Assembly (NCBI GenBank): GCA_965234725.1
Contig: CBDDUX010000108.1
Location: 1 to 31,295 of the forward strand
Reading direction: 5' to 3'
Origin: Thermoplasmatota archaeon
GTDB lineage: Archaea > Thermoplasmatota > Penumbrarchaeia > Penumbrarchaeales > Penumbrarchaeaceae
Length of the DNA stretch: 31,295 bases
The number at the start of each line of letters is the position of its first letter. Position 1 is the stretch's first letter. The translations under genes were made by a program, and so were the position numbers. This document shows, one piece after another, positions 9,161 to 31,295 of the stretch. The notes under the pieces are model-generated. The model saw only the letters and a program-made list of their open reading frames with translations. It ran no database searches and was not told where the DNA came from.

Positions 9161-9763
9161 TCATTTTTCATTTTCCAGTTCTAGAATGGCCGAGACCAGG
9201 GTAGGGATCCTTCCCTTGATCCTTACAATGAGCTCATTTCCATGCTCCACAAGAGGTGGTATGATGAAAGGTAGACTCTCCCTGTTGAAGATATGGAGGG
9301 GGACCTCGATCCTCTCAGTTCCCAGGAACTCAACGACCACCCCCCAATCAGGGATCCTGCCCGAAGGATCCGTTCTAACCGATCTGATCGTGGAGAATTT
9401 CAGACCGTTTCCGTTGGCAAGGTTCCTCAATTCCGAAGCCGTGACGATATCCATGCACCGTATATGAAGGAGGAGAGGCTGAACAAGAAGATGAACCTGT
9501 CCGGACCCATCCCATTTTCCAAGGGCATCCAGGACCTCTTGGGATGAGACCGTCCGATGCCATTTTCCAAGGACCGTGGAACCCAATTTATCTCCTGGTT
9601 CCGGAACCGATATTACCATTATCCTGCCGGAACATGAAGAGGTCGTCACCGCACATGGGAGCTTGTTTATCGCCTCCAGCAACGGGACGACCTCCGGATC
9701 GACGAGTCCCTTCATTAAGGCATCATCGAGTTTCCTTAGCGTATCTTGCTTCAGATCATCCAA
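9161..9763 (-). CDS. taw3: tRNA(Phe) wyosine-derivative N4-methyltransferase Taw3/TYW3
   Basis: Signature VD...PLL..IN...TTSSCSGRI, KWH, PLLLHI; length typical of archaeal Taw3. Confidence 0.9.
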   Translation of the reverse strand: MDDLKQDTLRKLDDALMKGLVDPEVVPLLEAINKLPCAVTTSSCSGRIMVISVPEPGDKLGSTVLGKWHRTVSSQEVLDALGKWDGSGQVHLLVQPLLLHIRCMDIVTASELRNLANGNGLKFSTIRSVRTDPSGRIPDWGVVVEFLGTERIEVPLHIFNRESLPFIIPPLVEHGNELIVRIKGRIPTLVSAILELENEK

Positions 9764-9768
9764 CTGAA

Positions 9769-18585: not shown

Positions 18586-20067
18586 TCAATGCTGATGTTC
18601 ATGGCCGTTTCCATGGTTGTGATCATGATGGCCGAATTGATCCTCCTGTCCCTTTCCAGGCCTGAGATTACCAAAGGCCCTGACCATTATCTCCTCCATA
18701 GCAGGATGAATTGTCTGTGCTCTCACAAGAGGCATATAGGTCCCTTTTCCTGAGTTCATAAGGTATACGAGAGGCTGGACCATTGCAGTGGCATGGGGGC
18801 CCACGGCATGCGCTCCCAGGATCTTTCGGGTCTTTGCTTCCAGTATGACCTTCACAAAACTGTTGCCCTCGTCACCCATTGCATATCCCTTGATGGCATC
18901 GTTGTAAGAGGCCTGTCCAACGAGAACGAGAATCTTACTATCTATTGCATCCTGTTCCCTTATACCAACACTGGCCACTTCAGGCCATGTGAAGACTGCA
19001 TGGGGGACCGCATGTTCATCCCGTACCTGCATCTCCTCCTCCGTTTGGGCAACCATATTGTTCCATGCAACTTCAGATTCATAATTGGCAGTGTGCCTGA
19101 ACATATTCCTGCCAATAGCATCACCGATCGCATAGATACCTTCCACATTGGTTCTCAGGAATTCGTCAACTATTACGAAACCCTTGTTATCTACCTTCAC
19201 GCCGGTCTTTTCTGGATGGAAGAGATCTGCATTCGATATCCTACCTGCCGCAACCATGATCTCCTCTGCCCTGAACCTGAATCTTTTTTCAGTTCTCCTA
19301 TCCCTTGCCACCACATATTTCTGTCCGTTCTCTATCCCCGCCTTTTCAACTTCGAAATCGGTATGGACCTTCATCCTCTCCGAGAGTCTCCGTTTTACCT
19401 CCGTTGATATCTCCGGTTCCTCCTGAGGGAGAAGAACCTTGTTCCTTCCCAGTATGATCACCTTCACACCGATGGAATCAAAGAAATGTGCGAATTCGGT
19501 TGCGATGTAACCTCCACCGATGATGATCAGACTGGCTGGAGGTTTTTTCAGTTCCAGCGCCTTGGTCGAATCTATGTATCCGGTCTCTTTCAGACCTTTG
19601 ATCTTCGGAACCGCTTCTCTTGTCCCTGCTGCGATCAGGATCAAAGGAGCTTTCATCTTCTTTCCGTCCACCTCCAGGACCTTTTTATCGACAAAGCTTG
19701 CTGTTCCATGGTAGAAGTCAAGTCCTTTCCCCCAACCCGCTTTTACCCCTCTGGTCATCTGGGCAACATCAGAATCCACAAGTTCGTGCATCCTCTTCAT
19801 TACCAGATCGAAGTCAACCTTCACTCCTTTTGCTGAAACACCTACCCTTTTGGCATCCCTCAACATCTGGACAACATCGGCTGGATATAGAATTATCTTG
19901 GTAGGGATACAGCCCCTGTTCAGACAAGTTCCGCCTATGGGTCCGTTGTCGATGACCGCAACCTTCATTCCCCTGGAATAAGCCTCGGAAGCTGCGTTCA
20001 TACCGGCTCCCGAACCCAATACAATGAGATCATAATCTTTCATATCAATACCATATGCAACTACCAT
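18586..20067 (-). CDS. Class I pyridine nucleotide-disulfide oxidoreductase (dihydrolipoamide dehydrogenase family, mycothione-reductase-like)
   Basis: GSGAG, GGTCLNRGCIPTK, GGGYIATE, IYAIGD, HTANYE, VPHAVFTWPEVASVG, IHPAMEE; His-rich tail. Start likely ATG 20043 (MKDYDL). Confidence 0.9.
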   Translation of the reverse strand: MVVAYGIDMKDYDLIVLGSGAGMNAASEAYSRGMKVAVIDNGPIGGTCLNRGCIPTKIILYPADVVQMLRDAKRVGVSAKGVKVDFDLVMKRMHELVDSDVAQMTRGVKAGWGKGLDFYHGTASFVDKKVLEVDGKKMKAPLILIAAGTREAVPKIKGLKETGYIDSTKALELKKPPASLIIIGGGYIATEFAHFFDSIGVKVIILGRNKVLLPQEEPEISTEVKRRLSERMKVHTDFEVEKAGIENGQKYVVARDRRTEKRFRFRAEEIMVAAGRISNADLFHPEKTGVKVDNKGFVIVDEFLRTNVEGIYAIGDAIGRNMFRHTANYESEVAWNNMVAQTEEEMQVRDEHAVPHAVFTWPEVASVGIREQDAIDSKILVLVGQASYNDAIKGYAMGDEGNSFVKVILEAKTRKILGAHAVGPHATAMVQPLVYLMNSGKGTYMPLVRAQTIHPAMEEIMVRAFGNLRPGKGQEDQFGHHDHNHGNGHEHQH

Positions 20068-20106
20068 AGAGGGTTATTTAGATATAATCCATGAAAAAGA
20101 GTAAAT

Positions 20107-20316
20107 TCATCGTATCAGTCTTTTGATGATGCCTATCATAATGCCCCTCCCTCCGGGTGATAGATCATGGAAAAGAAGGGCGGAAGGTATGCCGAAGGCC
20201 ATTCCTGCTACTAACAGGTCCCATCTCCCCATCCAAACGGAAATGACCACACCTGCCAGATGGGCCAGTAGCACGAATATCTCCTGGTAAGAGAGGAACC
20301 TCTTCAGATCCGTCAT
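20107..20316 (-). CDS. Small membrane protein (2 TM)
   Basis: 69 aa, two hydrophobic segments, ATGA overlap with the upstream CruF-like gene. Confidence 0.55.
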   Translation of the reverse strand: MTDLKRFLSYQEIFVLLAHLAGVVISVWMGRWDLLVAGMAFGIPSALLFHDLSPGGRGIMIGIIKRLIR

Positions 20317-21119
20317 CCGAAGACCACCACCTGGAAGAAATAAGTAATGTAAACAAACAGGAGCAGAAGGCCATATGAAATGACCACACCTGCAGCCATT
20401 GATATCTCCTTGAACAGGGTTGGTACTCTGATCTCATGAATATCCGTCCAAATGATCGTGAAACCGCCCACGGCCATGAACCAGGCAGTATAATTGGCAA
20501 GGGGAACACCAAGCCACTGCCATTCCTCCCAGTGCCAGAATCCATAGTTGGCAAATACCGCATCTATACCAACGTCTATCGAAACCGCCAGAACTCCAGC
20601 TAACAGTCCTTTCTCGATCTTTGCAAGGCGCTTGAGCTCATCTCTTCCTTCTATGGTCCTTATACAGGCATAGATCACAGCGGTCCAGCAGAAAGGAACT
20701 GCCATCTGAGTAGAATCAGCCATTATCCAGGAGTTTGGATTGTACTGGTAATAACCGGATTGGGTGACAGTGATCTCCTCAAGAATGAAACCGTAAACCA
20801 GGGCGAATATGAAGAAGAAAGTGGCTTTCTTCCTTCCCCAATTCTTCCATGCATGGAAATAGGAACCTGCCATGAGGAGAAGGCAGCCTATTTCGAAGAT
20901 ATGGAGAATGACAAGACCGTCCCCATGTCCATTCCATCCCGTTGGAGGGTCTCTGGTCTCGATGACCTTGGCAAGGATGAACATGAAGATGACAAGAGCC
21001 AGTACGATCAGGATCAGTTTCGGGGTCCTTTTCCTGTCCACCCAGGGCGTCTCCGGTACTGTCTCCTCGATATCCATCTTCCCCGTAATGGGCAAGGTGA
21101 TATTTGATTGGGAGGTCAA
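20313..21119 (-). CDS. CruF-like membrane protein (carotenoid biosynthesis / isopentenyl hydratase family)
   Basis: EE..V..GYY.Y, VPFCW, ID...D, FWHW...LGVPLANYTAWF. Start probably ATG 21077. Confidence 0.75.
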   Translation of the reverse strand: MTSQSNITLPITGKMDIEETVPETPWVDRKRTPKLILIVLALVIFMFILAKVIETRDPPTGWNGHGDGLVILHIFEIGCLLLMAGSYFHAWKNWGRKKATFFFIFALVYGFILEEITVTQSGYYQYNPNSWIMADSTQMAVPFCWTAVIYACIRTIEGRDELKRLAKIEKGLLAGVLAVSIDVGIDAVFANYGFWHWEEWQWLGVPLANYTAWFMAVGGFTIIWTDIHEIRVPTLFKEISMAAGVVISYGLLLLFVYITYFFQVVVFG

Positions 21120-21141
21120 GTTTTCTATAATGGCTTAGCAT

Positions 21142-21564
21142 TTGGCACGACGAGGAGTCAGAATGGGAACGGATCAGGTGGAACGGGAATTCACTGTAAT
21201 GACCTACGAGGTGGATTTCGCAGGGATAATGTCCAATCAGGTGTACCAGAGATGGCTGGAGGACCTGAGGATGGAACTTCTCTCAAAATATGTTGATATC
21301 AGGGACCTCTTTTCAGGTGGTTCCGTTCCGGTCCTTGCAAGGACCGAGATAGATTTCAAGCTTCCAGCAAGGTTGATGGACAAAGTCAAAGGTAGGATAT
21401 GGGTCGAGGAATTGATGGGGCCCAGATGGGCCCTTCGGTCGGAATTCACCATTGACGACAGGGTCTGTGCGAAAGCTTACCAGTATGGGGTGTTCGTTGA
21501 TACTGCCACATTCAGACCAATGAACAAGCCCGATGTCCTGCCGGATATTCCCCGTCAGGGGTGA
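21142..21564 (+). CDS. Acyl-CoA thioesterase, YbgC/4HBT hotdog family
   Basis: YEVDFAGIMSNQVYQRWLEDLR, EIDFKLPARLMD. Start likely ATG 21163, after GAGGAG. Confidence 0.85.
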   Translation: MARRGVRMGTDQVEREFTVMTYEVDFAGIMSNQVYQRWLEDLRMELLSKYVDIRDLFSGGSVPVLARTEIDFKLPARLMDKVKGRIWVEELMGPRWALRSEFTIDDRVCAKAYQYGVFVDTATFRPMNKPDVLPDIPRQG

Positions 21565-22163
21565 CGAAAAAGCGCTCTGATCCTATGTCGTTCCATTGAT
21601 GAATGGGACCAGGACTCTGTCTGGAGCTCGATGATCTCCAATCCTTTGAAAAGTTTCTTCAACTCATCAGGACGGAAGAAGTGCTGAATGATGCCGTTTC
21701 CTTTCCTAAACGTCCTCTCCTCCACCATGGTCCCATTTCCCTCTCTGACATCGCCGGTAGATAGGTCCTCGAAAGAAAGGAGTCCGGATGGTTTCATCAG
21801 GTCCATCAGGTTTTCGGAAGCGGTTTTTCTCCCTTCATTTTCCAGAGCACCGATAACATAGTGGGCGCATATGAGATCGAACTTACCAAGGTCCGTTATC
21901 TGTCCGGTCAGATCCATTATATGGAGTTCAGCCTGCAATCCCCTTGACTCGAGCCTCTCTCGCGTTTTCTCAATGGCGGAAGAGGATATGTCCACCCCCA
22001 CAACAGAATAACCGGTTTCAGCCGCTTTGATAAGGGTGGAACCGGTCCCGCAACCCACATCCAGGACCCTTGAGCCCGATGGGAGCTTGGGTAGTGTGTA
22101 TGGGGACCCTCTCCATTGAGCAGCTCCGGTCTTGTAATGAAGTTCCCAAGGGTCTTCGATCAT
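21555..22163 (-). CDS. Class I SAM-dependent methyltransferase
   Basis: RVLDVGCGTG, VVGVDISSSAI, KFDLI, LMKPSG. Confidence 0.85.
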   Translation of the reverse strand: MIEDPWELHYKTGAAQWRGSPYTLPKLPSGSRVLDVGCGTGSTLIKAAETGYSVVGVDISSSAIEKTRERLESRGLQAELHIMDLTGQITDLGKFDLICAHYVIGALENEGRKTASENLMDLMKPSGLLSFEDLSTGDVREGNGTMVEERTFRKGNGIIQHFFRPDELKKLFKGLEIIELQTESWSHSSMERHRIRALFRHP

Positions 22164-22177
22164 CCCATCTTCCCCCC

Positions 22178-22813
22178 TCAGGCAAGAACAGTGAACAGTC
22201 CTTTTAAGCCATCGGCAATGAACTGAACCGCTATTGCACCTAGAAGAAGCCCCATGATCCTTGAGAAGATCTTTGTGCCGGTCCTTCCAAGCCTCTTGAA
22301 GATCAGATCCGAATTCCTAAGAACCAGGTAGGCGAACAGCAGGACGAAGGAGACACAGGCCACGACCACAAGGATGCTTACCAGTTGATTATGTGTACCA
22401 TCGCTGACAGCGATCATCACTGTTGTAATGGATCCCGGTCCGGCAAGCAATGGTACTCCAAGTGGTACCACGCCGACCTGGTCTTTGTCCAGGTTCTCTT
22501 CCTTCTCCTTCGGGTTCAACTTCGCCTCCGGTGTATTTCCACGGACCATGTCCATAGCTATCAGGAAGAGAACTGCGCCCCCGGCTATCCTGAAAGCAGG
22601 AACAGTGATATTTAGAAAATCAAATATTAATTGCCCCAGCAAGGTGAAGATTATCAAGACTCCCAAGGCGACCATCACTGCTTTTTTGATGACCAGCCTC
22701 TTCTCCTTGAGCGTATACCCGGAGGTGAGGACGACATAGTTAGGGACCGCTCCCATCGGATTGATGATGGCAAAGAGGGATAGGAGGGTTGCGATCACGA
22801 ATTCCAGCACCAC
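22178..22813 (-). CDS. MarC family integral membrane protein
   Basis: LFAIINPMG, AFRIAGG, VVPLGVPLLAGPGSIT, SRIMGLLLGAIAVQFI. Confidence 0.93.
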   Translation of the reverse strand: MVLEFVIATLLSLFAIINPMGAVPNYVVLTSGYTLKEKRLVIKKAVMVALGVLIIFTLLGQLIFDFLNITVPAFRIAGGAVLFLIAMDMVRGNTPEAKLNPKEKEENLDKDQVGVVPLGVPLLAGPGSITTVMIAVSDGTHNQLVSILVVVACVSFVLLFAYLVLRNSDLIFKRLGRTGTKIFSRIMGLLLGAIAVQFIADGLKGLFTVLA

Positions 22814-22915
22814 GAATTCCCCGATGGAACCTTGACCCTTATTTAATACTATCTTGATAACTGTCTTTTATAGAGAAAAAACATTGACCATCAGAGGAAA
22901 GAGAGTTGTGGGTCC

Positions 22916-24082
22916 ATGAAGGATGATCTTCGCCGTGGGATCAAAGGCCAGCTCGTAGGTCTCAATTTATGGGTCGTTTGTGTATTCCTGGGTTTCCTTC
23001 TTTATGTGGCCCTACTCTCATCCTTCTTCGGTTTCGTCCTGGTGGTCCTTATACTTTTATTGTTCCTGATCGGAACATTTCGGGTCCTCAGGGGCCTCTT
23101 CCTTATCATCAGGGGTTCAACTAACAGGAGCGGCAGGATACTTGCCACCCTCTCGGTAATGATGCTTCTCACAAGTCCGTTCATGATCGGACTTTCATTC
23201 ATTTCACCAGCACCGATCAATTACATCATTCTCCAGGTAGGTCTCTGGAGTTTTCTTGCATCGATCATACTCCCCTATCTGAAAGGCAGAGGTCTTCTCA
23301 CCGGTATTCCCGCAATTCTTTCATCGACTGTTTTTTCCATCGTCATCCTTGGTTTCATTCTCTTTGGACGGGTAACCCTTCCATGGACACTTCCCTTTGG
23401 TCTGGCCATGACATATTTCATTTTTCTGGAGATCACTCTGTTCCTCAGTTATTTGAGGGCATTGAAATTGGAGGAACTTGACCCATCATCCGGAACGGGG
23501 GTATCGATCACTCCTGTAGTGGGTTCCCCGACCCTTTACCCTCGTGCTCAGAGCCTGGGTGATCTAAAGGCCGATATGGAACCCCATTCACGAAAAGAAA
23601 CGTTGGAAATGGATCCTTCGGAGATACTGAGGCCATCCGAGAAATCGATCGAAGAGCCCAAGGTGAAGTCGTTCGAGGATTTCGTGAATGAAATGGGCGT
23701 ACCTTCTCCGAGGACTCCCCCTAGCGGAACAAGGTCCACTTCCGGCACAACTTCTCAAATGAAGTTCAAGTCGACATCACAACAGGGAAAAAGGATCGAA
23801 GCCGAGGTGGAAGAAGAGAGATATCTCGACATGGAGGATATCCTGATGGATGGTGAGGACCTGTATTCCATTCTCAAGGTTCCTCGATCAGCCACACTCC
23901 TGGAAATGAGGAAAGCATACAGGAAACGGGCGCTATTGTATCATCCTGACCTCAATAGAGGTGTGGGAGAACTGTATCGGGAAACGATCAATGAAGAAAT
24001 GAGGAAATTGAACAAGGCAAAGGAGGTCCTATTCGATCCTTTGAAGCGATCCGAATACGACAGGAGATTGAAGCTCATTTAG
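22916..24082 (+). CDS. Polytopic membrane protein with C-terminal DnaJ (J) domain
   Basis: About 6 N-terminal TM segments, an S/T/P/E-rich linker, DLYSILKV...EMRKAYRKRALLYHPD...LNKAKEVLFDPLKRSEYD. Confidence 0.85.
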   Translation: MKDDLRRGIKGQLVGLNLWVVCVFLGFLLYVALLSSFFGFVLVVLILLLFLIGTFRVLRGLFLIIRGSTNRSGRILATLSVMMLLTSPFMIGLSFISPAPINYIILQVGLWSFLASIILPYLKGRGLLTGIPAILSSTVFSIVILGFILFGRVTLPWTLPFGLAMTYFIFLEITLFLSYLRALKLEELDPSSGTGVSITPVVGSPTLYPRAQSLGDLKADMEPHSRKETLEMDPSEILRPSEKSIEEPKVKSFEDFVNEMGVPSPRTPPSGTRSTSGTTSQMKFKSTSQQGKRIEAEVEEERYLDMEDILMDGEDLYSILKVPRSATLLEMRKAYRKRALLYHPDLNRGVGELYRETINEEMRKLNKAKEVLFDPLKRSEYDRRLKLI

Positions 24083-24089
24083 GAATGGG

Positions 24090-25049
24090 TCAAAATCTTT
24101 CACCAGTCAACCTCTGGAACATCTCCTTGTAAAGATCTGCGATCTTGGTGATCTCGTTTTCAGGTAAGGAGGGTATGGGTGGTTCTCTATCCTTTGGAAT
24201 GCCCTTCTCCCTGGCCTCCATTAGGCTCTCGTGGTATCCGGAGGACCTGTAGAACTGCCTTACAACTTCCTTGGATAGCTCCACCTTCTTCCCCTTCTTG
24301 TATTCCTCGATATCCCAGAAGCGGTCCTCATCCGCGGTTCCGAAGGTATCTATGAGCATGATGTTGCGGTCCTCATCGAATCCGAACTCCTTCTTCCCAT
24401 CGACATGGATCAGGCCCCTGGACCCGGACTCCTTCTCGATCACCTCGTCGATCTTGAGCACGGAATCCCAGATAGATTCCCATTCCCTTCTATCGATCTT
24501 CGCCAGGGCCATGGCTTCTTTGTTGGAAAGCGGCCTGTCCACTTCCTCAAGCTTGGTTGTTGCCTCCAGGAGTGGCTGTGGCAGGGGTTCACCGTAAATC
24601 GGTACATGGTTCTCAGGGAACCCCACATCCCCATTGCTTACTTTTCCCTTTTTCATCCTGTCAAGGAGGGACCCTGCAACATAATATCTGGCTATGAACT
24701 CGAGGGGGATCAGGATCGATGTGGACTCGGGAGTGATCCTTTTCATGTCCCTTTCGATCCTCACCTTCTTTACCCTCATCGAGGATGGTCCTGTCAATTT
24801 TATAAAATGGGACCCTATTCCAAGCTCCTTCCCTTTACCGAACCAGAAGGCAGAGGTCCTGCACAGGCTCTCCCCTTTCCTGGGGATCATGGAAGGGATC
24901 ACCTTGTCGAAGACCGATATCTTGTCAGTGAACTTGAATTCCAGCTCATCGGTTCCCTTTACGGAATAGACCTCTTTCACTTTACCGATCTGTATCAGCT
25001 CAAGTTCTTCACCCATAGAAATGCCTCCTTCATCGATCGATTTTAACAT
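24090..25049 (-). CDS. purC: Phosphoribosylaminoimidazole-succinocarboxamide (SAICAR) synthase
   Basis: GKVKEVY, FTDKISVFD, IPLEFIARYYVAGS, HVDGKKEFG, DTFGTADEDRFW, LSKEVVRQ. Start likely ATG 25016, after GGAGG. Confidence 0.95.
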   Translation of the reverse strand: MLKSIDEGGISMGEELELIQIGKVKEVYSVKGTDELEFKFTDKISVFDKVIPSMIPRKGESLCRTSAFWFGKGKELGIGSHFIKLTGPSSMRVKKVRIERDMKRITPESTSILIPLEFIARYYVAGSLLDRMKKGKVSNGDVGFPENHVPIYGEPLPQPLLEATTKLEEVDRPLSNKEAMALAKIDRREWESIWDSVLKIDEVIEKESGSRGLIHVDGKKEFGFDEDRNIMLIDTFGTADEDRFWDIEEYKKGKKVELSKEVVRQFYRSSGYHESLMEAREKGIPKDREPPIPSLPENEITKIADLYKEMFQRLTGERF

Positions 25050-25886
25050 TTATTTGCGACGCTTCCGGTCATTTTTCTTTTTTCCCCTAACATGGTCCTT
25101 ATGCTCTTCCTTCCTGGATGCCTGATCTTTTTTCCGGTTCGAGATGGATTCCTTCTTATCGGATCTTACCTCCTTTCTCGTTTCAGTCACATCCTTTACA
25201 GGTTGGACCCCGAAAATGTCCTCTCCCTTTTCCTTGAGCTTCCTTTGGAACTCATAGAACTTCAGACCTCTCATCAACGCCTGGCCTATGGGGATCGTGA
25301 TTACCATATAGAGCAGGATCCAGTATGGGAATCCCTTTCCTCCGAAACATATCGTACCGCAGACCTGTTCGAAAGCCGAGCCTGTCAGGGTCCATGAGGG
25401 ATCCCAGGGCGTGGTTGCCGTGGGCTGGGGTACCGTGGAGATGAAGGTGTACATCCACCTGAATATCAATATCGCGATGACCATGGAGAAGATGGAGGCC
25501 TTCATCTGGGTCATCATGGTCTGAGACTGCATTGACATGATGTCGGCGTTCTGCTCCTGAAGCTTCTCTACTTTGGACTTATTATTGTCCTTCTGGGCCT
25601 GCCTCAGCTCCTTATTATAGGCGTTCATTATCCTCTGCTTCCTTGCCAGGTCCATCCAGTCCATTGTAAAATGTCTGATCGTGGTTGAGATCGTGATCGT
25701 GAGAAGACCCGCACCCACCATTGTCAGTAATGGCCATTTGGAGGAAAAACCGATAATTGGCATCAGAACAAGGCCCACATATCCTGAGATAGAGTCTCCA
25801 AGGTCCCTATTGATCATTATCATCATCAGGAACATGAAGGCCAGGGCGTACAGGAAGCCTGTTGGCCCTTGACACATCTCCGCCAT
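25050..25886 (-). CDS. DUF106 / EMC3-TMCO1 (Oxa1 superfamily) membrane protein
   Basis: TM helix, DW..., coiled coil (KQRIMNAYNKELRQAQK), M/Q-rich segment, TM helix, WILLY, basic tail. Possible CTG start at 25925. Confidence 0.8.
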   Translation of the reverse strand: MAEMCQGPTGFLYALAFMFLMMIMINRDLGDSISGYVGLVLMPIIGFSSKWPLLTMVGAGLLTITISTTIRHFTMDWMDLARKQRIMNAYNKELRQAQKDNNKSKVEKLQEQNADIMSMQSQTMMTQMKASIFSMVIAILIFRWMYTFISTVPQPTATTPWDPSWTLTGSAFEQVCGTICFGGKGFPYWILLYMVITIPIGQALMRGLKFYEFQRKLKEKGEDIFGVQPVKDVTETRKEVRSDKKESISNRKKDQASRKEEHKDHVRGKKKNDRKRRK

Positions 25887-25954
25887 GGGATTTTGAACCG
25901 GAGCCTGTTTTTCAGCTTCTGCCAGAATGACACCTCATTATTATTTGGAGGGAG

Positions 25955-26028
25955 GGCCGGGACCGAGATTTGAACTCGGGCGAGGGGATCCACAGTCCCC
26001 GATGCTACCAGGCTACACCATCCCGGCC
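25955..26028 (-). tRNA. trnH: tRNA-His (GTG) with encoded G-1 and no encoded CCA
   Basis: Minus strand: G-GCCGGGA...GGGGA-CTGTGGA-TCCCC...CCGAG-TTCAAAT-CTCGG-TCCCGGC-C. Cloverleaf with G-1:C73. Confidence 0.97.
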
Positions 26029-26057
26029 ATAGGGTTGGATTCTACCCCATACGATCC

Positions 26058-26170
26058 TTATATTAATTTATTTTTAGGATCGGCTCATTGAGTGTTTTAA
26101 ATACAGCAGGGGATTGTTTAAATATTTTCAACTCCAATTTGAATTATATATTAGAATTTGCAGGAGGTGA
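26058..26170. promoter_or_regulatory. Divergent promoter region (tRNA-His leftward, putative lipid operon rightward)
   Basis: Minus-strand TTAATATAAG about 30 nt upstream of the tRNA; plus-strand TTTAAATA (26117-26124) and TTATATAT (26144-26151); SD AGGAGGTGA 26162-26170 before TTG 26177. Confidence 0.6.
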
Positions 26171-26176
26171 GGGAAT

Positions 26177-27346
26177 TTGAATTTCAAGGACTATTTCCAC
26201 GTCAACAAGTCCATCGCGATCGAATGTGGTTTCAGTCCCTATTATCTTGAGATTCAATCATGCATTGGAAAGAGGATGCAGATCCAAGGTAAGGATGTTA
26301 TATCACTTGGATCGAACGACTATCTGGGCCTTTCAAATGATCCGAGATTAAAAAAAGCTGCAAAGGAGGCTATTGACAAGTTCGGTATCAGTCTGTGCGG
26401 GACACCGGTGGTCATCGGATATACCTCATTGAACAGGGAGCTCGAGATGGCCCTTTCAGATCTTCTCAAAACAGAGGAGACCCTTGTCTACCCTTCTGGA
26501 TATCAGGCAAATATTGGCGTATTCAAACTCCTTTCCACTCTTGTGGATGTGATACTGATCGATGAGTATGCCCATTCATGTCTTTACGAAGGGACAAAGC
26601 TCTCAAAGACAGAGGTGAAGAAGTTCAGACACAATGATACAGAAGAGCTCGAATCACTTCTCAGAGAGAACAAAAACAGAAGGATGAGGTTTATTGTGGT
26701 AGATGGCCTCTATTCAACGGAAGGATCCGTGGCAAGGCTCGATAGAATGGTGGAGCTTGCTGAGGAATATGATGCATTTCTTATTGTTGATGATGCACAT
26801 GGTCTCGGAACCATCGGAGAGGAAGGCAGGGGAAGCTGTGAGGTGAGATCGGTACTCTCAAAGGTCGATATGGTGACCGGTTCCTTAGGCAAAACGCTGG
26901 CCTGCACTGGAGGATTCATATCTGCGAACCATGAGATTGCAGACTATTTCAGATACTACTCCTCTCAATTCGTATACTCCACATCCCTCCCTCCAGCAAT
27001 GACCGCTGCATGTATCAAATCCATAGAGATCGTGAAAGGAGCATCTGACCGAAGGAGGAAACTTGTTCGGAACAAAGATAGGTTAATATCCGCCGTTAGA
27101 GACCTGGGATTCAACACCACTTCCTCCGAGACACCATTATTCTCCATTATATCCCGGGATGCATGTGATACGATCAGACTTGCAAGGGACCTCTTCGAGC
27201 GGGGGGTTTATGCGATACCCTTCATTCCTCCAAGCGTTCCCATAGGACGGTCTTGCCTCAGATTCATACCCAGCGCAGAGTTGGATATTGAGGATATTGA
27301 CCAGGTCATAGAGGTTTTCAAGGACCTTGGGGGAAATTACAATTGA
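26177..27346 (+). CDS. PLP-dependent alpha-oxoamine synthase (BioF/KBL/serine palmitoyltransferase family)
   Basis: LGSNDYLGL, SGYQAN, AHSCL, FRHND, VDGLYSTEG, VDDAHGLG, GSLGKT...GG (PLP Lys), YSTSLPP, PPSVP...CLRF. Confidence 0.92.
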   Translation: MNFKDYFHVNKSIAIECGFSPYYLEIQSCIGKRMQIQGKDVISLGSNDYLGLSNDPRLKKAAKEAIDKFGISLCGTPVVIGYTSLNRELEMALSDLLKTEETLVYPSGYQANIGVFKLLSTLVDVILIDEYAHSCLYEGTKLSKTEVKKFRHNDTEELESLLRENKNRRMRFIVVDGLYSTEGSVARLDRMVELAEEYDAFLIVDDAHGLGTIGEEGRGSCEVRSVLSKVDMVTGSLGKTLACTGGFISANHEIADYFRYYSSQFVYSTSLPPAMTAACIKSIEIVKGASDRRRKLVRNKDRLISAVRDLGFNTTSSETPLFSIISRDACDTIRLARDLFERGVYAIPFIPPSVPIGRSCLRFIPSAELDIEDIDQVIEVFKDLGGNYN

Positions 27347-28272
27347 GTTATCTTATCATTCATAATCCAACAGCCAGGAGTGGAAGGTCGATACGGATCA
27401 AGGATCACATTGTAAGCGAGATGAGGAAGAGAGGAATGGATCACGACATCGTTCAAACATCCAGAAAGGATGAAGCGGTCGATCTGTCCCGTATGGGTTG
27501 TCTGAAAGATGAACATGATGTGATAGTCGCGATGGGAGGTGACGGTACTATATGTGAGGTTATTACTGGGATGATGAGGGCAGGCTCAGGTAAGATGCCC
27601 CGCCCCTGTCTTGGGGTCATTCATATCGGAACCAGCCCGGATTTCAACCGATACCATTCGATCCCGTTTTCTCCCCTATCCCAACTTGACGTGATCGAGA
27701 GGGGCAGGTCGAGAAAGATTGATATCGGCAGGGTCGAACTGAAGGGTTTTTCGGGGACAATGGAAAAGTGGTATTTCGGTAGTTCGGTGAACCTGGGCCT
27801 GGGCCCCTCCATCGCTTCCAGGTCCAACGGCAGGTACAGGAGATTCCTGGGAGACATGTTAGGAACCCTTCTTTCCACCCTTGTATCCCTGGCTGGCTAT
27901 GATCCCTCAGACATCGAAGCAAGGATTGACGGAAAGGGGGTCACCTACAAGGACCTGATCAATCTAACAGTAGGAAAGGACCCACATTTAGCATCCGGTA
28001 TGAGGGTCCCGATCGCAATGCCTGATGACAATGGGCGGATGTACTGTCTTTCCATTGAGACCGCCTCCAAGTTCGCGCTTCTACCTCAAATAAAAAAGAT
28101 GTATGCTGGTAATATCCTGGACTACAGAGGAGCCCGATTGATATATTGCTCTAAATTCGAGGTACAGAATAGTACCAATCGGAAGGTCGAATTCGACGGC
28201 GATCACAGGGGTTTCCTGCCCGTTAAAGTTGATCTGGTGGAGAAGGGATTGGAGGTGATAATGGATGTCTGA
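27343..28272 (+). CDS. Diacylglycerol/sphingosine kinase (DAGK_cat, YegS-like) family protein
   Basis: IHNPTARSG, AMGGDGTICEV, GTSPDF, KIDIGRV, FDGD; TTGA overlap with the upstream gene. Confidence 0.88.
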   Translation: MSYLIIHNPTARSGRSIRIKDHIVSEMRKRGMDHDIVQTSRKDEAVDLSRMGCLKDEHDVIVAMGGDGTICEVITGMMRAGSGKMPRPCLGVIHIGTSPDFNRYHSIPFSPLSQLDVIERGRSRKIDIGRVELKGFSGTMEKWYFGSSVNLGLGPSIASRSNGRYRRFLGDMLGTLLSTLVSLAGYDPSDIEARIDGKGVTYKDLINLTVGKDPHLASGMRVPIAMPDDNGRMYCLSIETASKFALLPQIKKMYAGNILDYRGARLIYCSKFEVQNSTNRKVEFDGDHRGFLPVKVDLVEKGLEVIMDV

Positions 28273-29311
28273 AAGGGTCTTTGTGACCGGAGGAACCGGT
28301 TTCATTGGCAGTCATATCGTTGATGCCCTCGTTGAGGGTGGACGAGATGTTACGGTCCTTGCAAGGAAAAGCAGTAGCAGGGCAAATCTTACAATGGCAT
28401 TGGAATCGGGGAGGGTCCGTCTCATTCAGGGAGATATTACCGACCCGGGAAGCCTCAGAGGATCCATGGAGGACATGGAGGTTCTCATCCACGGAGCAGC
28501 CCTATCCCGAGACTGGGGGGATCGTGCAGATTTCCGATCGATCAACATATCAGGTACCATCAATGTTTTGGAGGAAGCTATCCGGTCCGGGGTCGGGCAT
28601 ATCATCCACATCAGCACTTGCGGTGTGATCGGAGAGGAAGACTGCATAGATCCCAAATCCGAGGAGAGCCCGATCAGACCTCATTTACCATATCTGTTCC
28701 ATAGGGTATTTCCCTCTGCTATGAACTATTACAGAGAGACCAAGGGAGAGGGGGAGGCGAAGGCAATTGAAATATGCAAAGGGAACGTGGTTGGTCTTAC
28801 AGTTATCAGACCTGTTTGGGTATTCGGGGAAAGGGAACTTCATTCGGGACCATACATTACAGCAAGGGCAGGGCTTAAAGGACCTGCTTTGATACCGGGA
28901 AGGGGTAGTACTCTCTTCCATATGGTCTATGTCAGAGACCTGGCAAAGATGATAACTAAGCTATCTGAATGGAAGGGAAATGGGATCAGGACCTTTATGG
29001 CAGGTCCAGAAAGGCCCGTTCCTCTTGAGGAATACCATGGGGATCTTTTTAAGATCATAGGATCAAGGGACCCTGTATATCTTCCGAAGATCCTTACATA
29101 TCCAGTAGGACTGATCATGGAGTTTTTATCTGCAATTCTTAGGTCGGATTCCCCCCCACTCCTGACAAGGGCAAGGGTCTCAATGGGATTCAATAATAAC
29201 ATATATGATACCTCGAAATTGAGGTCGGAACTTGGAACGCTCCCCTGCACGAGTTTGAAAACCGGGTTGAACAGATCTGTAAGGTGGTGGAGGGAAAATG
29301 GCTACCTCTGA
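28265..29311 (+). CDS. Extended SDR (NAD-dependent epimerase / 3-beta-HSD-like)
   Basis: VTGGTGFIGSH, GDITD, HIST, YRETK (YxxxK), IRPVWVFG, VYVRDLA, PPLLTR; 8-bp overlap. Confidence 0.9.
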   Translation: MSERVFVTGGTGFIGSHIVDALVEGGRDVTVLARKSSSRANLTMALESGRVRLIQGDITDPGSLRGSMEDMEVLIHGAALSRDWGDRADFRSINISGTINVLEEAIRSGVGHIIHISTCGVIGEEDCIDPKSEESPIRPHLPYLFHRVFPSAMNYYRETKGEGEAKAIEICKGNVVGLTVIRPVWVFGERELHSGPYITARAGLKGPALIPGRGSTLFHMVYVRDLAKMITKLSEWKGNGIRTFMAGPERPVPLEEYHGDLFKIIGSRDPVYLPKILTYPVGLIMEFLSAILRSDSPPLLTRARVSMGFNNNIYDTSKLRSELGTLPCTSLKTGLNRSVRWWRENGYL

Positions 29312-30608
29312 TGTCCGTTATCTCACAGGCCTGAAGAAGGCCATTTTTCTACAGAGGTTGAAGATGGGAGTGGCCTTGCATTTCATCAGTGAGATGCTGA
29401 AAGGGAGGATGGGTATTGGAAAGATGATCCGGACCCTTAGGAACGTTCTGATCTTCTACAACAAGGTCAAGACGAATAAAGTGGTCAAGGTAAGAAGTTC
29501 TTACAAATTTCATATTTATTTTCCAGCATATCCAACCCCTGCCTTCTGGAAGGGAATGGAGAAGTTCATTCCCAAGGGTCTGAAACCGGAAAGGATAGCC
29601 AGTACATCCGTCCTTATTTCCATGACCAAGAGCTGCCCTTACGACTGTGAGCATTGCTATCAGAAAGTGGACCGGCTTGATGACATGCCAGTTGAGAAGA
29701 TGAAGGAGGTCACCAGACGTATCCGCGACCTAGGGACCTCATATTTCAACATCGAGGGAGGAGAGCCCCTTGTCAGATTCGACCGGTTAATTCAGATCCT
29801 TTCAGTTCTTGGGCCTTCTGAAGAGGTATGGGTAAATACAACCGGATTCTCAATTGATAGGAAGAAGGCAGACCTGATGAGGGAAGCTGGTGTATTTGGA
29901 GTCATGGTGAGCATACACCATCCGGATGCCTCCGTTCACGACAGATTCGTAGGGCATGATGGGGCCTTCGACATTGCGGTAAAGGCCCTTGGGACCTTCA
30001 GGGAGGCTGGTCTCGCAACAATGATCAATTGTACAGGGACGCAGGACCTCGTTTCAGGAGATGGATTCGATAGGATAATGGAGATAGCGAAGAAGGAAAG
30101 ATGCGCCATGGTCCAGCTCATTCATGAGAAACCGGCAGGGGCATGGATGGGTAAGGATGACGTGATGAAAGGTCCCTATGTCAGGAGACTTCAGGACATT
30201 CACCGGATATACAATTCGAGTGGTGAAAAGGCAAAGTATCCGCCGGTCTCATCTCAGGCGTTCGAGTCCAGAATTGATGAGTACGGATGTACCGCAGGGG
30301 GAATCGACAGGTTCTACGTAAATGCGAATGGTGATGTCCAACCCTGCGAATTCGTTAACGTGAGTGTGGGAAATGTTTTAGAGGAGGATTTCGAAGAGAT
30401 CTATATCAGGATGAGGAGGCGTTTCATTTATCCCCGGGTGAATTGGATCTGTTGCACCGAACATGAAAGGGTGAGGGAAGCATTCAGAAGGTCTGGTCAA
30501 ACCAATACACCTCTATCTCCTGAGAGGTCAGCCCCCCTCATGAATAAATTCGATAGGGGAATAAAGACGCCGATCTACTGTGAAATGGGGATCTATGATG
30601 AGGGTTAA
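29298..30608 (+). CDS. Radical SAM protein with SPASM/twitch-like C-terminal domain
   Basis: CPYDCEHC (CxxxCxxC), EGGEP, CTAGG..RFYVNANGDVQPCEF, GNV, WICC; 14-bp overlap. Confidence 0.92.
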   Translation: MATSDVRYLTGLKKAIFLQRLKMGVALHFISEMLKGRMGIGKMIRTLRNVLIFYNKVKTNKVVKVRSSYKFHIYFPAYPTPAFWKGMEKFIPKGLKPERIASTSVLISMTKSCPYDCEHCYQKVDRLDDMPVEKMKEVTRRIRDLGTSYFNIEGGEPLVRFDRLIQILSVLGPSEEVWVNTTGFSIDRKKADLMREAGVFGVMVSIHHPDASVHDRFVGHDGAFDIAVKALGTFREAGLATMINCTGTQDLVSGDGFDRIMEIAKKERCAMVQLIHEKPAGAWMGKDDVMKGPYVRRLQDIHRIYNSSGEKAKYPPVSSQAFESRIDEYGCTAGGIDRFYVNANGDVQPCEFVNVSVGNVLEEDFEEIYIRMRRRFIYPRVNWICCTEHERVREAFRRSGQTNTPLSPERSAPLMNKFDRGIKTPIYCEMGIYDEG

Positions 30609-31295
30609 GAGATCCCTTTCGAAATTCCCACTTGCGTACCTAAGGTCAATGAGGCCCTACACTTTCTTTGTGACCGGAACTGCGGGACTCGCAGGAATTA
30701 TGGCAGTTAGGGGATGGACGGATCCAGCGAGATGCGCTGTATCACTAATCCTCCTTTTCTCCGCTTACGGGACAAATCAGGTTGTAAACGATCTTCTGGG
30801 ATTGAAAGAGGATTCCTACAATAAGGTCAGGAGACCCCTGGTGACAGGAGAACTAGGATCACGGGCGGCGTGGACGGTGACAGGTATCATATTCATCGCT
30901 GGTGGTATCATTTCCTTCTTCCTCAATCCGGAGTCACTGATCATATACGTTGCAGGATATGGTTTCAATGTGATCTATGAGCAAATGAAGGGCATTCCTT
31001 TTGCTGGAAATCTCTGGTTCGGAGCGATGATCGCGCTAGCACCATTTTTCGGTGCTGTAACCACAAGCGGTCTATCTCTTGAGGCAGCCCTGAAGGATAA
31101 GGAGATCCTCATGATCATGCTGCTTGTAATGCTTATCCAGTCATCTCTTTGCAGATTGACCTATTTTAAGGATGAAGGGGGAGATAGGAAAGCTGGAAAG
31201 ATGACCTATGTGGTCGTTATGGGTTATAGAAGGGCAAGATATCTCAGCTTCCTTATACTCCCAATTCCTCATATCACATTATTGATCCTAATTTT
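30595..31295 (+). CDS. UbiA-family prenyltransferase (3' truncated by window end; absent from the ORF track)
   Basis: Manual translation, open to the window end: MMRVKRS...SMRPYT...NQVVNDLLGLKEDSYNKVRRPLVTGEL...IYEQMKGIPFAGNL...TYFKDEGGDRKAGKMT; 14-bp overlap with the radical SAM gene. Confidence 0.88.
   Translation, partial: MMRVKRSLSKFPLAYLRSMRPYTFFVTGTAGLAGIMAVRGWTDPARCAVSLILLFSAYGTNQVVNDLLGLKEDSYNKVRRPLVTGELGSRAAWTVTGIIFIAGGIISFFLNPESLIIYVAGYGFNVIYEQMKGIPFAGNLWFGAMIALAPFFGAVTTSGLSLEAALKDKEILMIMLLVMLIQSSLCRLTYFKDEGGDRKAGKMTYVVVMGYRRARYLSFLILPIPHITLLILI

What the first reader, a model, noticed from the sequence alone, without database searches (positions are those of the whole stretch)
26177..31295. 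Candidate archaeal sphingoid-like / amino-lipid operon: SPT-like synthase, lipid kinase, SDR, radical SAM, UbiA
Seen: five same-strand genes, each overlapping the next (4, 8, 14, 14 bp), behind a perfect SD; the operon continues past the window. Established: alpha-oxoamine synthases condense an amino acid with an acyl-thioester to give a keto-amine (SPT makes 3-ketosphinganine); SDRs reduce such ketones; DAGK_cat includes sphingosine kinases; UbiA enzymes such as DGGGP synthase build archaeal ether lipids on phosphorylated acceptors. Inference: the gene set reads as condensation, keto-reduction, phosphorylation, prenylation and radical tailoring, giving a hybrid amino-alcohol/isoprenoid lipid. 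Sphingolipid synthesis is known from eukaryotes and some bacteria; I know of no characterised archaeal pathway. No bioA/B/D or threonine dehydrogenase gene is in the window to explain the synthase.
Basis: partly seen in the sequence, partly recalled or inferred. Interest (0 to 1): 0.92.

Follow-up and report, generated by a model that had tools for sequence, protein, structure and literature searches.

The report
Uncharacterised amino-lipid prenylation cassette in an archaeon
Five tightly packed genes in an uncultured marine-sediment archaeon form a mobile, widely shared cassette that probably builds an unknown lipid from an amino acid, an acyl chain, a phosphate and an isoprenoid chain, but its first enzyme is not a true sphingolipid synthase.

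Summary
Five overlapping same-strand genes follow a strong Shine-Dalgarno site: alpha-oxoamine synthase (AOS), DAGK-type kinase, extended SDR, radical SAM (rSAM) and UbiA prenyltransferase. The contig ends inside the UbiA gene.

The contig is archaeal (Thermoplasmatota). The cassette is rare there: 5 of 401 genomes sampled. In this genome it is a roughly 6 kb insertion next to tRNA-His that three congeners lack at that site.

The same gene set recurs on many metagenome contigs, some of which carry bacterial marker genes, in two main gene orders. Fusions (ACP-AOS, AOS-SDR, SDR-rSAM, UbiA-rSAM) tie four of the five enzymes into one pathway. A beta-ketoacyl synthase and an ACP accompany the AOS in relatives, which points to a long acyl chain.

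The "SPT-like" label fails. The AOS misses every curated cut-off and falls outside the SPT clade, whereas another AOS in the same genome groups with SPTs.

In relatives the operon ends with UbiA plus a small 4-TM protein. The product and the rSAM reaction remain unknown.

Six literature searches found no description. Earlier notes of this scan describe the same cassette in bacterial genomes.

Verdict: a real, conserved, undescribed pathway. The "archaeal sphingolipid" reading is only partly supported.

The parts
25954..26027 (-). tRNA-His(GTG). It marks the left boundary of the inserted cassette.
   Evidence: ARAGORN. Synteny with three congeners runs up to about 26075-26099 and stops there.
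26162..26170 (+). Shine-Dalgarno sequence AGGAGGTGA, 6 nt before the TTG start.
   Evidence: Sequence read.
26177..27346 (+). Alpha-oxoamine synthase (PLP-dependent, 389 aa) of a cassette-specific clade. It is not an SPT, BioF, KBL or ALAS by curated cut-offs.
   Evidence: Pfam and NCBIfam. H133, D205, H208, K239 and R362 are invariant against E. coli BioF and Kbl and two SPTs. Tree.
27343..28272 (+). DAGK_cat/YegS_C-type lipid kinase (309 aa) with a GGDG motif at residue 65.
28265..29311 (+). Extended short-chain dehydrogenase/reductase (348 aa). It carries GGTGFIG at residue 9 and YRETK at residue 156. The nearest curated families are HpnA and OleD, both far below cut-off.
   Evidence: It is fused to the AOS or to the rSAM in relatives.
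29298..30608 (+). Radical SAM enzyme (436 aa) with a conserved N-terminal domain of about 100 aa. It has CPYDCEHC at residue 113 and a half SPASM (twitch-like) motif, CX13GX4C at 331-350, plus CC at 385.
30595..31295 (+). UbiA-family prenyltransferase of the DGGGPS/ChlG branch, cut by the contig end after about 233 residues. It may instead start at GTG 30580.

Best explanation
The five genes, together with a small 4-TM protein gene that lies just beyond the contig end, form one horizontally mobile biosynthetic cassette for an undescribed amphiphilic, most likely membrane-bound, product. The proposed route has five steps, and their order is not established. (1) The PLP-dependent AOS condenses an amino acid with an acyl thioester to give an alpha-amino ketone. 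The donor would be acyl-CoA here and acyl-ACP in relatives whose AOS carries a fused ACP. (2) The extended SDR reduces the ketone to a vicinal amino alcohol. (3) The twitch-type radical SAM enzyme modifies this intermediate or the final lipid by an unknown radical reaction. (4) The DAGK-type kinase phosphorylates a hydroxyl group. (5) The DGGGPS-like UbiA enzyme attaches a polyprenyl chain from a polyprenyl diphosphate to an O (or N) atom of the phosphorylated intermediate. What is shown: the family memberships, the intact catalytic motifs, the conserved co-occurrence and the fusions. What is inferred: the substrates, the order of steps, the rSAM chemistry and the nature of the product.
For: Families and motifs are documented. 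Conservation within Thermoplasmatota: AOS orthologues at 49-72% identity occur in 4 of 40 relatives, each with the same neighbours. rSAM orthologues at 53% identity or more occur in 5 of 401 genomes, counting this one. Conservation in metagenomes, among 80 contigs found with the rSAM profile: 61 carry UbiA, 59 the kinase, 41 the AOS and 39 the SDR, and 24 carry all five. Of the 15 contigs with at least 6 kb on both sides, 13 carry the AOS plus at least three other cassette genes. The genes occur in different orders: AOS-KIN-SDR-rSAM-UbiA in one arrangement and UbiA-rSAM-KIN-ThiL-like-OYE-AOS-SDR in another. Shuffled order with retained content argues for functional linkage. Fusions: ACP-AOS is Pfam-checked in 2 loci and found in 9 loci by local search. 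AOS-SDR occurs in 1 locus and SDR-rSAM in 2 loci. All 10 of 10 longer database homologues are SDR-rSAM fusions, and 2 proteins are UbiA-rSAM fusions. A FabF-like beta-ketoacyl synthase lies by the AOS in 13 loci, Pfam-checked in 2. UbiA's best solved relative is M. jannaschii DGGGP synthase, by sequence (52 bits) and by fold (E 4.5e-9). The genome holds five other UbiA genes, one of them a better DGGGPS candidate.
Against: No product has been observed. The Thermoplasmatota copies have no ACP or KAS, so the acyl donor is unknown. The only PP-binding domains found in the genome sit in one giant PfaA-like ORF. The AOSs of the two arrangements are separate clades, so their substrates may differ. 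The UbiA first motif is ND..G..ED rather than the usual ND..D...D, as I recall it, so its chemistry may differ. In the bacterial arrangement a ThiL-like kinase sits beside the lipid kinase. That hints at a diphosphate, which would make the amino-alcohol lipid a donor rather than an acceptor. The rSAM fold search gave only generic twitch/SPASM relatives with TM about 0.5. The copy in congener G004 has interrupted rSAM and UbiA frames.
Confidence: 0.55

Rival explanations
1. A classical sphingolipid pathway. The AOS is a serine palmitoyltransferase that makes 3-ketosphinganine, which is then reduced and phosphorylated to a sphinganine-1-phosphate-type lipid.
For: The top solved hits are bacterial SPTs, but only narrowly: 231 bits against 223 for KBL. 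The AOS, extended SDR and DAGK-type kinase mirror the bacterial ceramide and ceramide-phosphate gene set (recalled, not tested here). KAS and ACP accompany the AOS in relatives.
Against: All three curated SPT models are missed by a wide margin. The AOS clade (SH-aLRT 100) lies apart from two cut-off-validated SPTs, while another paralogue of the same genome groups with them (SH-aLRT 98). None of the five cassette genes has an acyltransferase or other ceramide-synthase-like Pfam domain.
Confidence: 0.12
2. The product is a diffusible small molecule rather than a membrane lipid. Examples would be a signal or secondary metabolite such as a prenylated amino-ketone or amino-alcohol, comparable to the CqsA/LqsA-type autoinducers.
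For: AOS enzymes also start autoinducer and alkaloid pathways (the CqsA model scores 238 bits). The cassette is accessory, patchy and mobile, as secondary-metabolite clusters often are.
Against: A lipid-type kinase, an integral-membrane DGGGPS-like prenyltransferase, a 4-TM partner protein, and KAS/ACP supply of the acyl chain all point to a membrane-anchored amphiphile.
Confidence: 0.2
3. A tetrapyrrole or quinone cofactor pathway, with an ALAS-like AOS, an AhbD/NirJ-like rSAM and a chlorophyll- or haem O-synthase-like UbiA.
For: The rSAM scores 91 bits on the AhbD model and UbiA scores 52 bits on ChlG.
Against: ALAS is among the weakest AOS matches (233 bits against a cut-off of 339). All of these scores are far below their cut-offs. 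No tetrapyrrole or quinone gene recurs in the 80 loci. The KAS, ACP and lipid kinase do not fit this reading.
Confidence: 0.04
4. Housekeeping BioF or KBL that happens to sit beside unrelated genes.
For: The highest NCBIfam scores are bioF (333 bits) and KBL (322 bits).
Against: Both are below their cut-offs of 426 and 460. The genome has two other AOS genes, one of them KBL/BioF-like. The neighbours are conserved and fused across phyla. Three congeners lack the cassette at the syntenic site.
Confidence: 0.02

Closest known systems
Bacterial ceramide and ceramide-phosphate synthesis (Spt, CerR-type reductase, bCerS, ceramide kinase). The pathway and protein names are recalled, and are also named in earlier scan notes.
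   Same: It starts with an alpha-oxoamine synthase, uses an Epimerase-family (extended SDR) keto-reductase and a DAGK_cat-type lipid kinase, and can draw its acyl chain from an ACP.
   Different: The AOS here is outside the SPT clade and below all SPT cut-offs. There is no N-acyltransferase. A DGGGPS-like UbiA prenyltransferase, a radical SAM enzyme and a 4-TM protein are present instead.
Archaeal digeranylgeranylglyceryl phosphate synthase (M. jannaschii DGGGPS, PDB 6M31/7BPU).
   Same: It is the best solved relative of the cassette UbiA by sequence and by fold. They share the ...N.P.RP... and KD..GD motifs. DGGGPS prenylates a hydroxyl of a phosphorylated lipid acceptor (established knowledge).
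   Different: The scores are 63-92 bits against cut-offs of 296-353. The first Asp-rich motif reads ND..G..ED. The genome has a separate, better DGGGPS candidate. Here the enzyme is coupled or fused to an rSAM.
Twitch/SPASM radical SAM enzymes (SkfB, SuiB, anSME, BlsE, MoaA, BtrN).
   Same: They share the CX3CX2C cluster, the partial TIM barrel and one auxiliary-cluster motif, and they are the best fold matches.
   Different: Identity is 15-18% and TM about 0.5. The cassette rSAM has its own conserved N-terminal domain of about 100 aa. No peptide substrate gene is present. It is not related at E<=0.001 to the tetraether synthase GDGT-MAS.
OleD and HpnA lipid-associated extended SDRs.
   Same: They are the nearest curated families of the SDR, at 128 and 97 bits. 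OleD reduces a 3-oxo lipid intermediate.
   Different: The scores are far below the cut-offs of 368 and 580. Here the SDR is coupled to an AOS and an rSAM.

Membership tests
Serine palmitoyltransferase (SPT) | Score at or above the curated NCBIfam equivalog cut-offs (NF047600, NF047599, NF047603). | tested here: not met
   311, 296 and 243 bits against cut-offs of 640, 500 and 670. Control SPTs from P. distasonis (684) and Sphingomonas (833) pass.
Serine palmitoyltransferase (SPT) | Placement inside the SPT clade in an AOS tree. | tested here: not met
   In the tree (53 rows, 'quick' IQ-TREE search, SH-aLRT support only), the window AOS lies in a 15-row cassette clade (100), apart from the SPT references. 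The SPT references group with a different paralogue of this genome (98).
Serine palmitoyltransferase (SPT) | Uses L-serine and a long-chain acyl thioester. | not testable with these tools
   This needs an enzyme assay. The context in relatives (fused ACP, KAS) favours a long chain.
Alpha-oxoamine synthase subfamily of fold-type I PLP enzymes | The PLP-binding lysine and the His/Asp/His/Arg catalytic set. | tested here: met
   H133, D205, H208, K239 and R362 are invariant in an alignment with E. coli BioF and Kbl and two SPTs. Pfam Aminotran_1_2 matches at 7e-51.
BioF, KBL, ALAS and CqsA | Curated equivalog cut-offs. | tested here: not met
   333 against 426, 322 against 460, 233 against 339, and 238 against 428.
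YegS/BmrU/DgkB-type lipid kinases (DAGK_cat) | The DAGK_cat and YegS_C domains and the GGDG motif. | tested here: met
   Pfam gives 75.5 and 40.9 bits, both above cut-off. GGDG is at residue 65. The TIGR00147 subfamily model is not reached (96 against 119).
Extended SDR (Epimerase / 3beta-HSD) | The TGxxGxxG cofactor motif and the YxxxK catalytic pair. | tested here: met
   GGTGFIG at residue 9 and YRETK at residue 156. Pfam Epimerase scores 105 bits. The HpnA and OleD equivalogs are not reached.
Radical SAM, SPASM/twitch subclass | The CX3CX2C cluster motif, and the full seven-cysteine SPASM motif. | tested here: inconclusive
   CX3CX2C is present and invariant. Only the first SPASM half (CX13GX4C) and a CC pair are conserved, so one auxiliary cluster (twitch-like) is the likelier reading. 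Pfam SPASM scores 27 bits.
DGGGP synthase | Curated equivalog cut-offs (PRK12882, PRK12883). | tested here: not met
   The truncated window protein scores 66 and 63 bits. The full-length orthologue of G028 scores 90 and 92 bits. The cut-offs are 296 and 353. Even so, DGGGPS is the nearest solved fold.
Tetraether synthase Tes / GDGT-MAS | Sequence similarity to the solved enzyme (PDB 7TOL). | tested here: not met
   7TOL is not among the 6 PDB matches at E<=0.001 and is not in the listed fold matches.
Bacterial ceramide pathway | A ceramide synthase (N-acyltransferase) in the gene set. | tested here: not met
   None of the five cassette genes has an acyltransferase domain. The rest of the genome was not searched for one.

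The most novel reading that the evidence does not exclude
The cassette makes a new class of hybrid membrane lipid. In it, an acyl-derived amino-alcohol phosphate takes the place of glycerol phosphate and is alkylated with an isoprenoid chain by a DGGGPS-like enzyme, with a radical SAM step on the chain or backbone. Such a 'prenyl-sphingoid' lipid would combine bacterial-type and archaeal-type building blocks and would be exchanged between the two domains as a 6 kb module.
Probability: 0.3. Interest if true: 0.9.

Novelty: new variant of a known kind. Interest (0 to 1): 0.68.

Why it matters
If the prediction holds, uncultured anaerobes of both domains share a self-contained module for a lipid that joins an acyl-derived amino-alcohol backbone to an isoprenoid chain. 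That chemistry cuts across the archaeal/bacterial "lipid divide". It would add an unassigned biomarker class to sediment lipidomes. It would also give a radical SAM enzyme and a UbiA enzyme new reactions. The work here corrects one tempting shortcut: the gene that looks like an archaeal SPT in this genome lies elsewhere, on contig C1, not in this operon.

Tried and rejected
- **Literature.** Six full-text searches found no paper describing an AOS/kinase/SDR/rSAM/UbiA cassette. The library lacks most subscription journals, and no supplements were read.
- **rSAM function.**
  - The PDB sequence search, the Foldseek search of a pLDDT 91 model and the ESM Atlas gave only generic radical SAM/SPASM relatives.
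  - The 28-30% identical rSAMs of other Thermoplasmatota are not Tes-like either (28-30 bits to 7TOL).
- **4-TM protein (P130).**
  - It has no Pfam or NCBIfam family.
  - No longer fused form was found.
  - Complex prediction of rSAM with P130 gave no verdict.
- **Expression.** No RNA holder was listed for the operon.
- **Read laying.** One DNA run (possibly the source sample) holds the whole stretch on a 6843-nt contig that runs 598 nt beyond the window. A 20-nt probe taken from a low-depth divergent contig end matched none of the 144 fetched loci.
- **Plasmid collection.** There was no rSAM match at 1e-30.
- **Promoter and terminator scan.** It uses bacterial consensus sequences, and the counts were no higher than in the shuffled controls.
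- **Readings considered and dropped.**
  - KBL plus SDR-type threonine dehydrogenase. The SDR's listed best matches were lipid- and sugar-type SDRs, and the neighbours are conserved.
  - Housekeeping DGGGPS. Another paralogue fits that role better.
  - The upstream carotenoid, thioesterase and methyltransferase genes as part of the pathway. They are conserved in congeners that lack the operon at this site.


Full report
**Observation**

The window is a whole 31,295-bp contig (G000:C108). One search lists five + strand ORFs:

| ORF | Length | Start codon |
|---|---|---|
| 26177-27346 | 389 aa | TTG |
| 27343-28272 | 309 aa | TTG |
| 28265-29311 | 348 aa | ATG |
| 29298-30608 | 436 aa | ATG |
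| 30580-31293 | open at the contig end | GTG |

- The overlaps are 4, 8 and 14 bp.
- AGGAGGTGA lies at 26162-26170, 6 nt before the TTG start.
- A tRNA-His gene (25954-26027, minus strand) lies directly upstream.
- Pfam confirms the five domain assignments above their gathering scores.

**Origin of the contig**

- The rest of the contig carries typically archaeal families: HTH_10, TYW3 and an EMC3/TMCO1-like insertase.
- A genome of the same genus (G004) holds the orthologous operon on a 163,422-bp contig. A public record of that length, found with the rSAM protein, is titled "uncultured Thermoplasmatales archaeon". Two further hits are titled Thermoplasmatota.
- GC content of the operon (0.44-0.50) is within the contig's range.

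**The five proteins**

- **AOS.** The window's AOS has H133, D205, H208, K239 and R362 invariant in an alignment with E. coli BioF and Kbl and two SPTs. It reaches no curated NCBIfam cut-off:

| Model | Score (bits) | Cut-off (bits) |
|---|---|---|
| bioF | 333 | 426 |
| KBL | 322 | 460 |
| SPT, CFB type | 311 | 640 |
| SPT, beta type | 296 | 500 |
| SPT, alpha type | 243 | 670 |
| CqsA | 238 | 428 |
| ALAS | 233 | 339 |

  Solved SPTs lead KBLs only narrowly, 231 against 223 bits.
- **Kinase.** It has DAGK_cat plus YegS_C and a GGDG motif. Its best solved relative is S. aureus DgkB.
- **SDR.** It is an extended SDR with GGTGFIG and YRETK. The nearest curated families are the lipid-associated HpnA and OleD, both far below cut-off.
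- **rSAM.** It has CX3CX2C, a conserved N-terminal domain of about 100 aa, and only the first half of a SPASM motif plus a CC pair. That suggests one auxiliary cluster.
- **UbiA.** Its nearest solved relative is M. jannaschii DGGGP synthase, by sequence (52 bits) and by fold (pLDDT 91 model, E 4.5e-9).
  - Across 55 cassette UbiAs the first motif reads ND..G..ED..NAP.RP and the second reads KD..GD.
  - The genome has five other UbiA genes. One, of 280 aa on contig C1, scores 167-171 bits on the DGGGPS-type models, against 66-80 bits for the window protein.
  - The window protein is therefore an extra paralogue and not the housekeeping enzyme.

**Conservation**

Within Thermoplasmatota:
- Among 40 relatives, AOS orthologues (49-72% identity) occur in four (G004, G018, G022, G028). 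All other matches are 36% identity or lower.
- In 401 Thermoplasmatota genomes, rSAM orthologues (53% identity or more) occur in five, counting this one. Ten further genomes have only matches at 28-30% identity.
- G028, which belongs to a different family, has all five genes in the same order plus a convergent 132-aa gene.
- In four Thermoplasmatota loci UbiA (316-325 aa) is the last gene on its strand.

In metagenomes, a scan with an rSAM alignment found 243 relatives, of which the best 80 were kept. Among these 80 contigs:

| Gene | Contigs carrying it (of 80) |
|---|---|
| UbiA | 61 |
| Kinase | 59 |
| AOS | 41 |
| SDR | 39 |
| ThiL-like PurM-family protein | 34 |
| Old-yellow-enzyme reductase | 25 |
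| All five core genes | 24 |

- Most contigs are short. Of the 15 with at least 6 kb on both sides, 13 carry the AOS plus at least three other cassette genes. The other two carry only the rSAM and the small membrane protein.
- Only one contig, 2.4 kb long, shows the rSAM alone.
- Two main gene orders exist. Type A is AOS-KIN-SDR-rSAM-UbiA, as in the window. Type B is UbiA-rSAM-KIN-ThiL-like-OYE-AOS-SDR, as in a Lentisphaerae MAG.

**Fusions and extra genes**

- Pfam shows ACP-AOS (L045, L043), AOS-SDR (L067) and SDR-rSAM (L055, L069) fusions.
- All 10 of 10 longer database homologues of the rSAM carry Epimerase-family plus Radical_SAM domains.
- Two 50%-cluster representatives are UbiA-rSAM fusions and one is an SDR-rSAM fusion.
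- An ACP is fused to the AOS in 9 loci and free-standing just upstream in 2 more. None is present in the Thermoplasmatota loci.
- A FabF-like beta-ketoacyl synthase lies near the AOS in 13 loci, Pfam-checked in 2.
- A 4-TM protein of about 130 aa with no family assignment accompanies the cassette in 21 loci.
- These links join AOS, SDR, rSAM and UbiA into one pathway. In relatives they indicate an acyl chain built on a carrier protein.

**The synthase is not an SPT**

I validated reference sequences against curated cut-offs: P. distasonis SPT (684 against 640), Sphingomonas SPT (833 against 670), and E. coli BioF and Kbl. I then built a 53-row tree using a 'quick' IQ-TREE search with SH-aLRT support only.
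- The window AOS falls in a 15-row type-A clade (support 100).
- Type-B AOSs form a separate clade (100), placed nearer Kbl with only weak support (SH-aLRT 80).
- The two SPT references group (98) with a different AOS of this genome (contig C1) and its counterparts in relatives.
- That C1 paralogue scores 489 bits on the CFB-type SPT model.
- Deeper branches are weakly supported, so relations between the clades are open.

**Mobility**

- Three congeners (G002, G003, G004) are syntenic with window positions 19,000-26,099, through tRNA-His. Beyond that point they continue directly into the homologue of the end of G000 contig C66.
- That same contig end carries the first ~35 codons of the 4-TM gene.
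- The operon plus the small gene is therefore an insertion of about 6 kb in this genome. G004 carries its copy in another place, with interrupted rSAM and UbiA frames.
- In an rSAM tree the Thermoplasmatota sequences form a clade (99). This clade sits inside a 15-row clade (100) that also holds Nanoarchaeota- and Pacearchaeota-labelled sequences.
- That clade is nested among type-A sequences from contigs carrying bacterial marker genes: methionyl-tRNA formyltransferase, a porin, and bacterial-type GAPDH. The root is not established.

**Mechanism**

Shown: the family memberships, intact motifs, co-occurrence and fusions.

Inferred:
- The AOS forms an amino ketone from an amino acid and an acyl thioester.
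- The SDR reduces it.
- The kinase phosphorylates a hydroxyl group.
- The DGGGPS-like UbiA adds a polyprenyl chain to the phosphorylated intermediate.
- The rSAM, physically tied to both the SDR and UbiA, performs an unknown radical step at the membrane.

Open points:
- The acyl donor in the archaeon is unknown. The genome encodes a 3741-aa PfaA-like ORF with a KS and six ACP domains, but it is a family-wide trait and not specific to the operon.
- The ThiL-like kinase of type B hints at a diphosphate intermediate.
- The amino-acid substrate is unknown.

**Novelty**

- Six searches found no description of this cassette.
- I read passages of PMC11334938. That paper reports that no archaeal MAG in the Black Sea encoded an Spt-like protein.
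- I read the outline and passages of a 2026 review of lipid-modifying radical SAM enzymes, PMC13459092. It lists Tes, Mss, Gms, GrsA/B, Gmm, Cds, HpnH/J/P/R, Jaw5 and the ladderane enzymes. The term UbiA has no occurrence in it, and the sphingolipid passages shown were only general background.
- Earlier notes of this scan describe the same cassette in bacterial genomes, including the SDR-rSAM fusion and the 4-TM protein. I confirmed those features independently, but not their claims about cultured carriers or species counts.
- What this report adds is the archaeal copy, its insertion site, the extended chain of fusions, and the finding that the cassette AOS is not the SPT-like paralogue of this genome.

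Noticed in passing
G000 contig C1:44149-45273 (locus L121:1441-2646): A second AOS of the same genome, 33% identical to the window's. It scores 489 bits on the curated CFB-type SPT model (cut-off 640). It groups with two validated SPTs at SH-aLRT 98. AOS matches of similar identity (31-36%), which include counterparts of this paralogue, occur in most relatives of the family. It stands alone next to a DNA ligase gene. It is a better candidate for an archaeal SPT-like enzyme than the operon's AOS.
   Followed up: partly
G000 contig C54:16348-23211 (loci L129-L134): One 3741-aa ORF with a ketosynthase domain and six tandem phosphopantetheine-binding domains, an architecture I recall as PfaA-like (PUFA-synthase-type). 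Homologues occur in 27 of 41 genomes searched, including 21 of 23 of the same family. It therefore looks like a lineage trait of these Thermoplasmatota, not contamination.
   Followed up: partly
window 25954-26099 and G000 contig C66:36063-36372: The operon sits at a synteny break directly beside tRNA-His. Three congeners pass from tRNA-His straight into the gene that lies at the end of contig C66. That contig end also holds the first ~35 codons of the 4-TM gene, followed by a stop close to the contig end.
   Followed up: yes
window 26000-31295: In the one run that holds the whole stretch, a 6843-nt contig covers about 25051-31295 and runs 598 nt beyond the window end. A separate 548-nt low-depth contig matches 26004-26037 and then diverges. 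This may be a relative without the insertion, but its end matched no fetched locus.
   Followed up: partly
L014 (G004:C14) 9643-11910: In the same-genus copy of the cassette the rSAM reads as two pieces with an in-frame TAG, and UbiA reads as two ORFs. This is either gene decay or indel errors in that assembly.
   Followed up: no
window 20313-22163: Genes for a carotenoid-synthesis-family protein (PF04240), a 4HBT_2 thioesterase and a CMAS-like methyltransferase lie about 4 to 6 kb upstream. They are conserved in congeners that lack the operon at this site, so they do not belong to it.
   Followed up: partly
L063:9971-11729 and L064: In two contigs, one of which (L063) carries bacterial housekeeping genes (SecDF, Mfd, SurA, PdxA, KsgA), the rSAM and the 4-TM protein occur as a pair without the other cassette genes within about 10 kb. 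In L063 a PIG-L deacetylase and a GNAT follow.
   Followed up: partly
P0145 (1467 aa): A representative protein with the cassette-type rSAM domain at residues 19-425, followed by about 1000 residues that match none of the cassette proteins.
   Followed up: no
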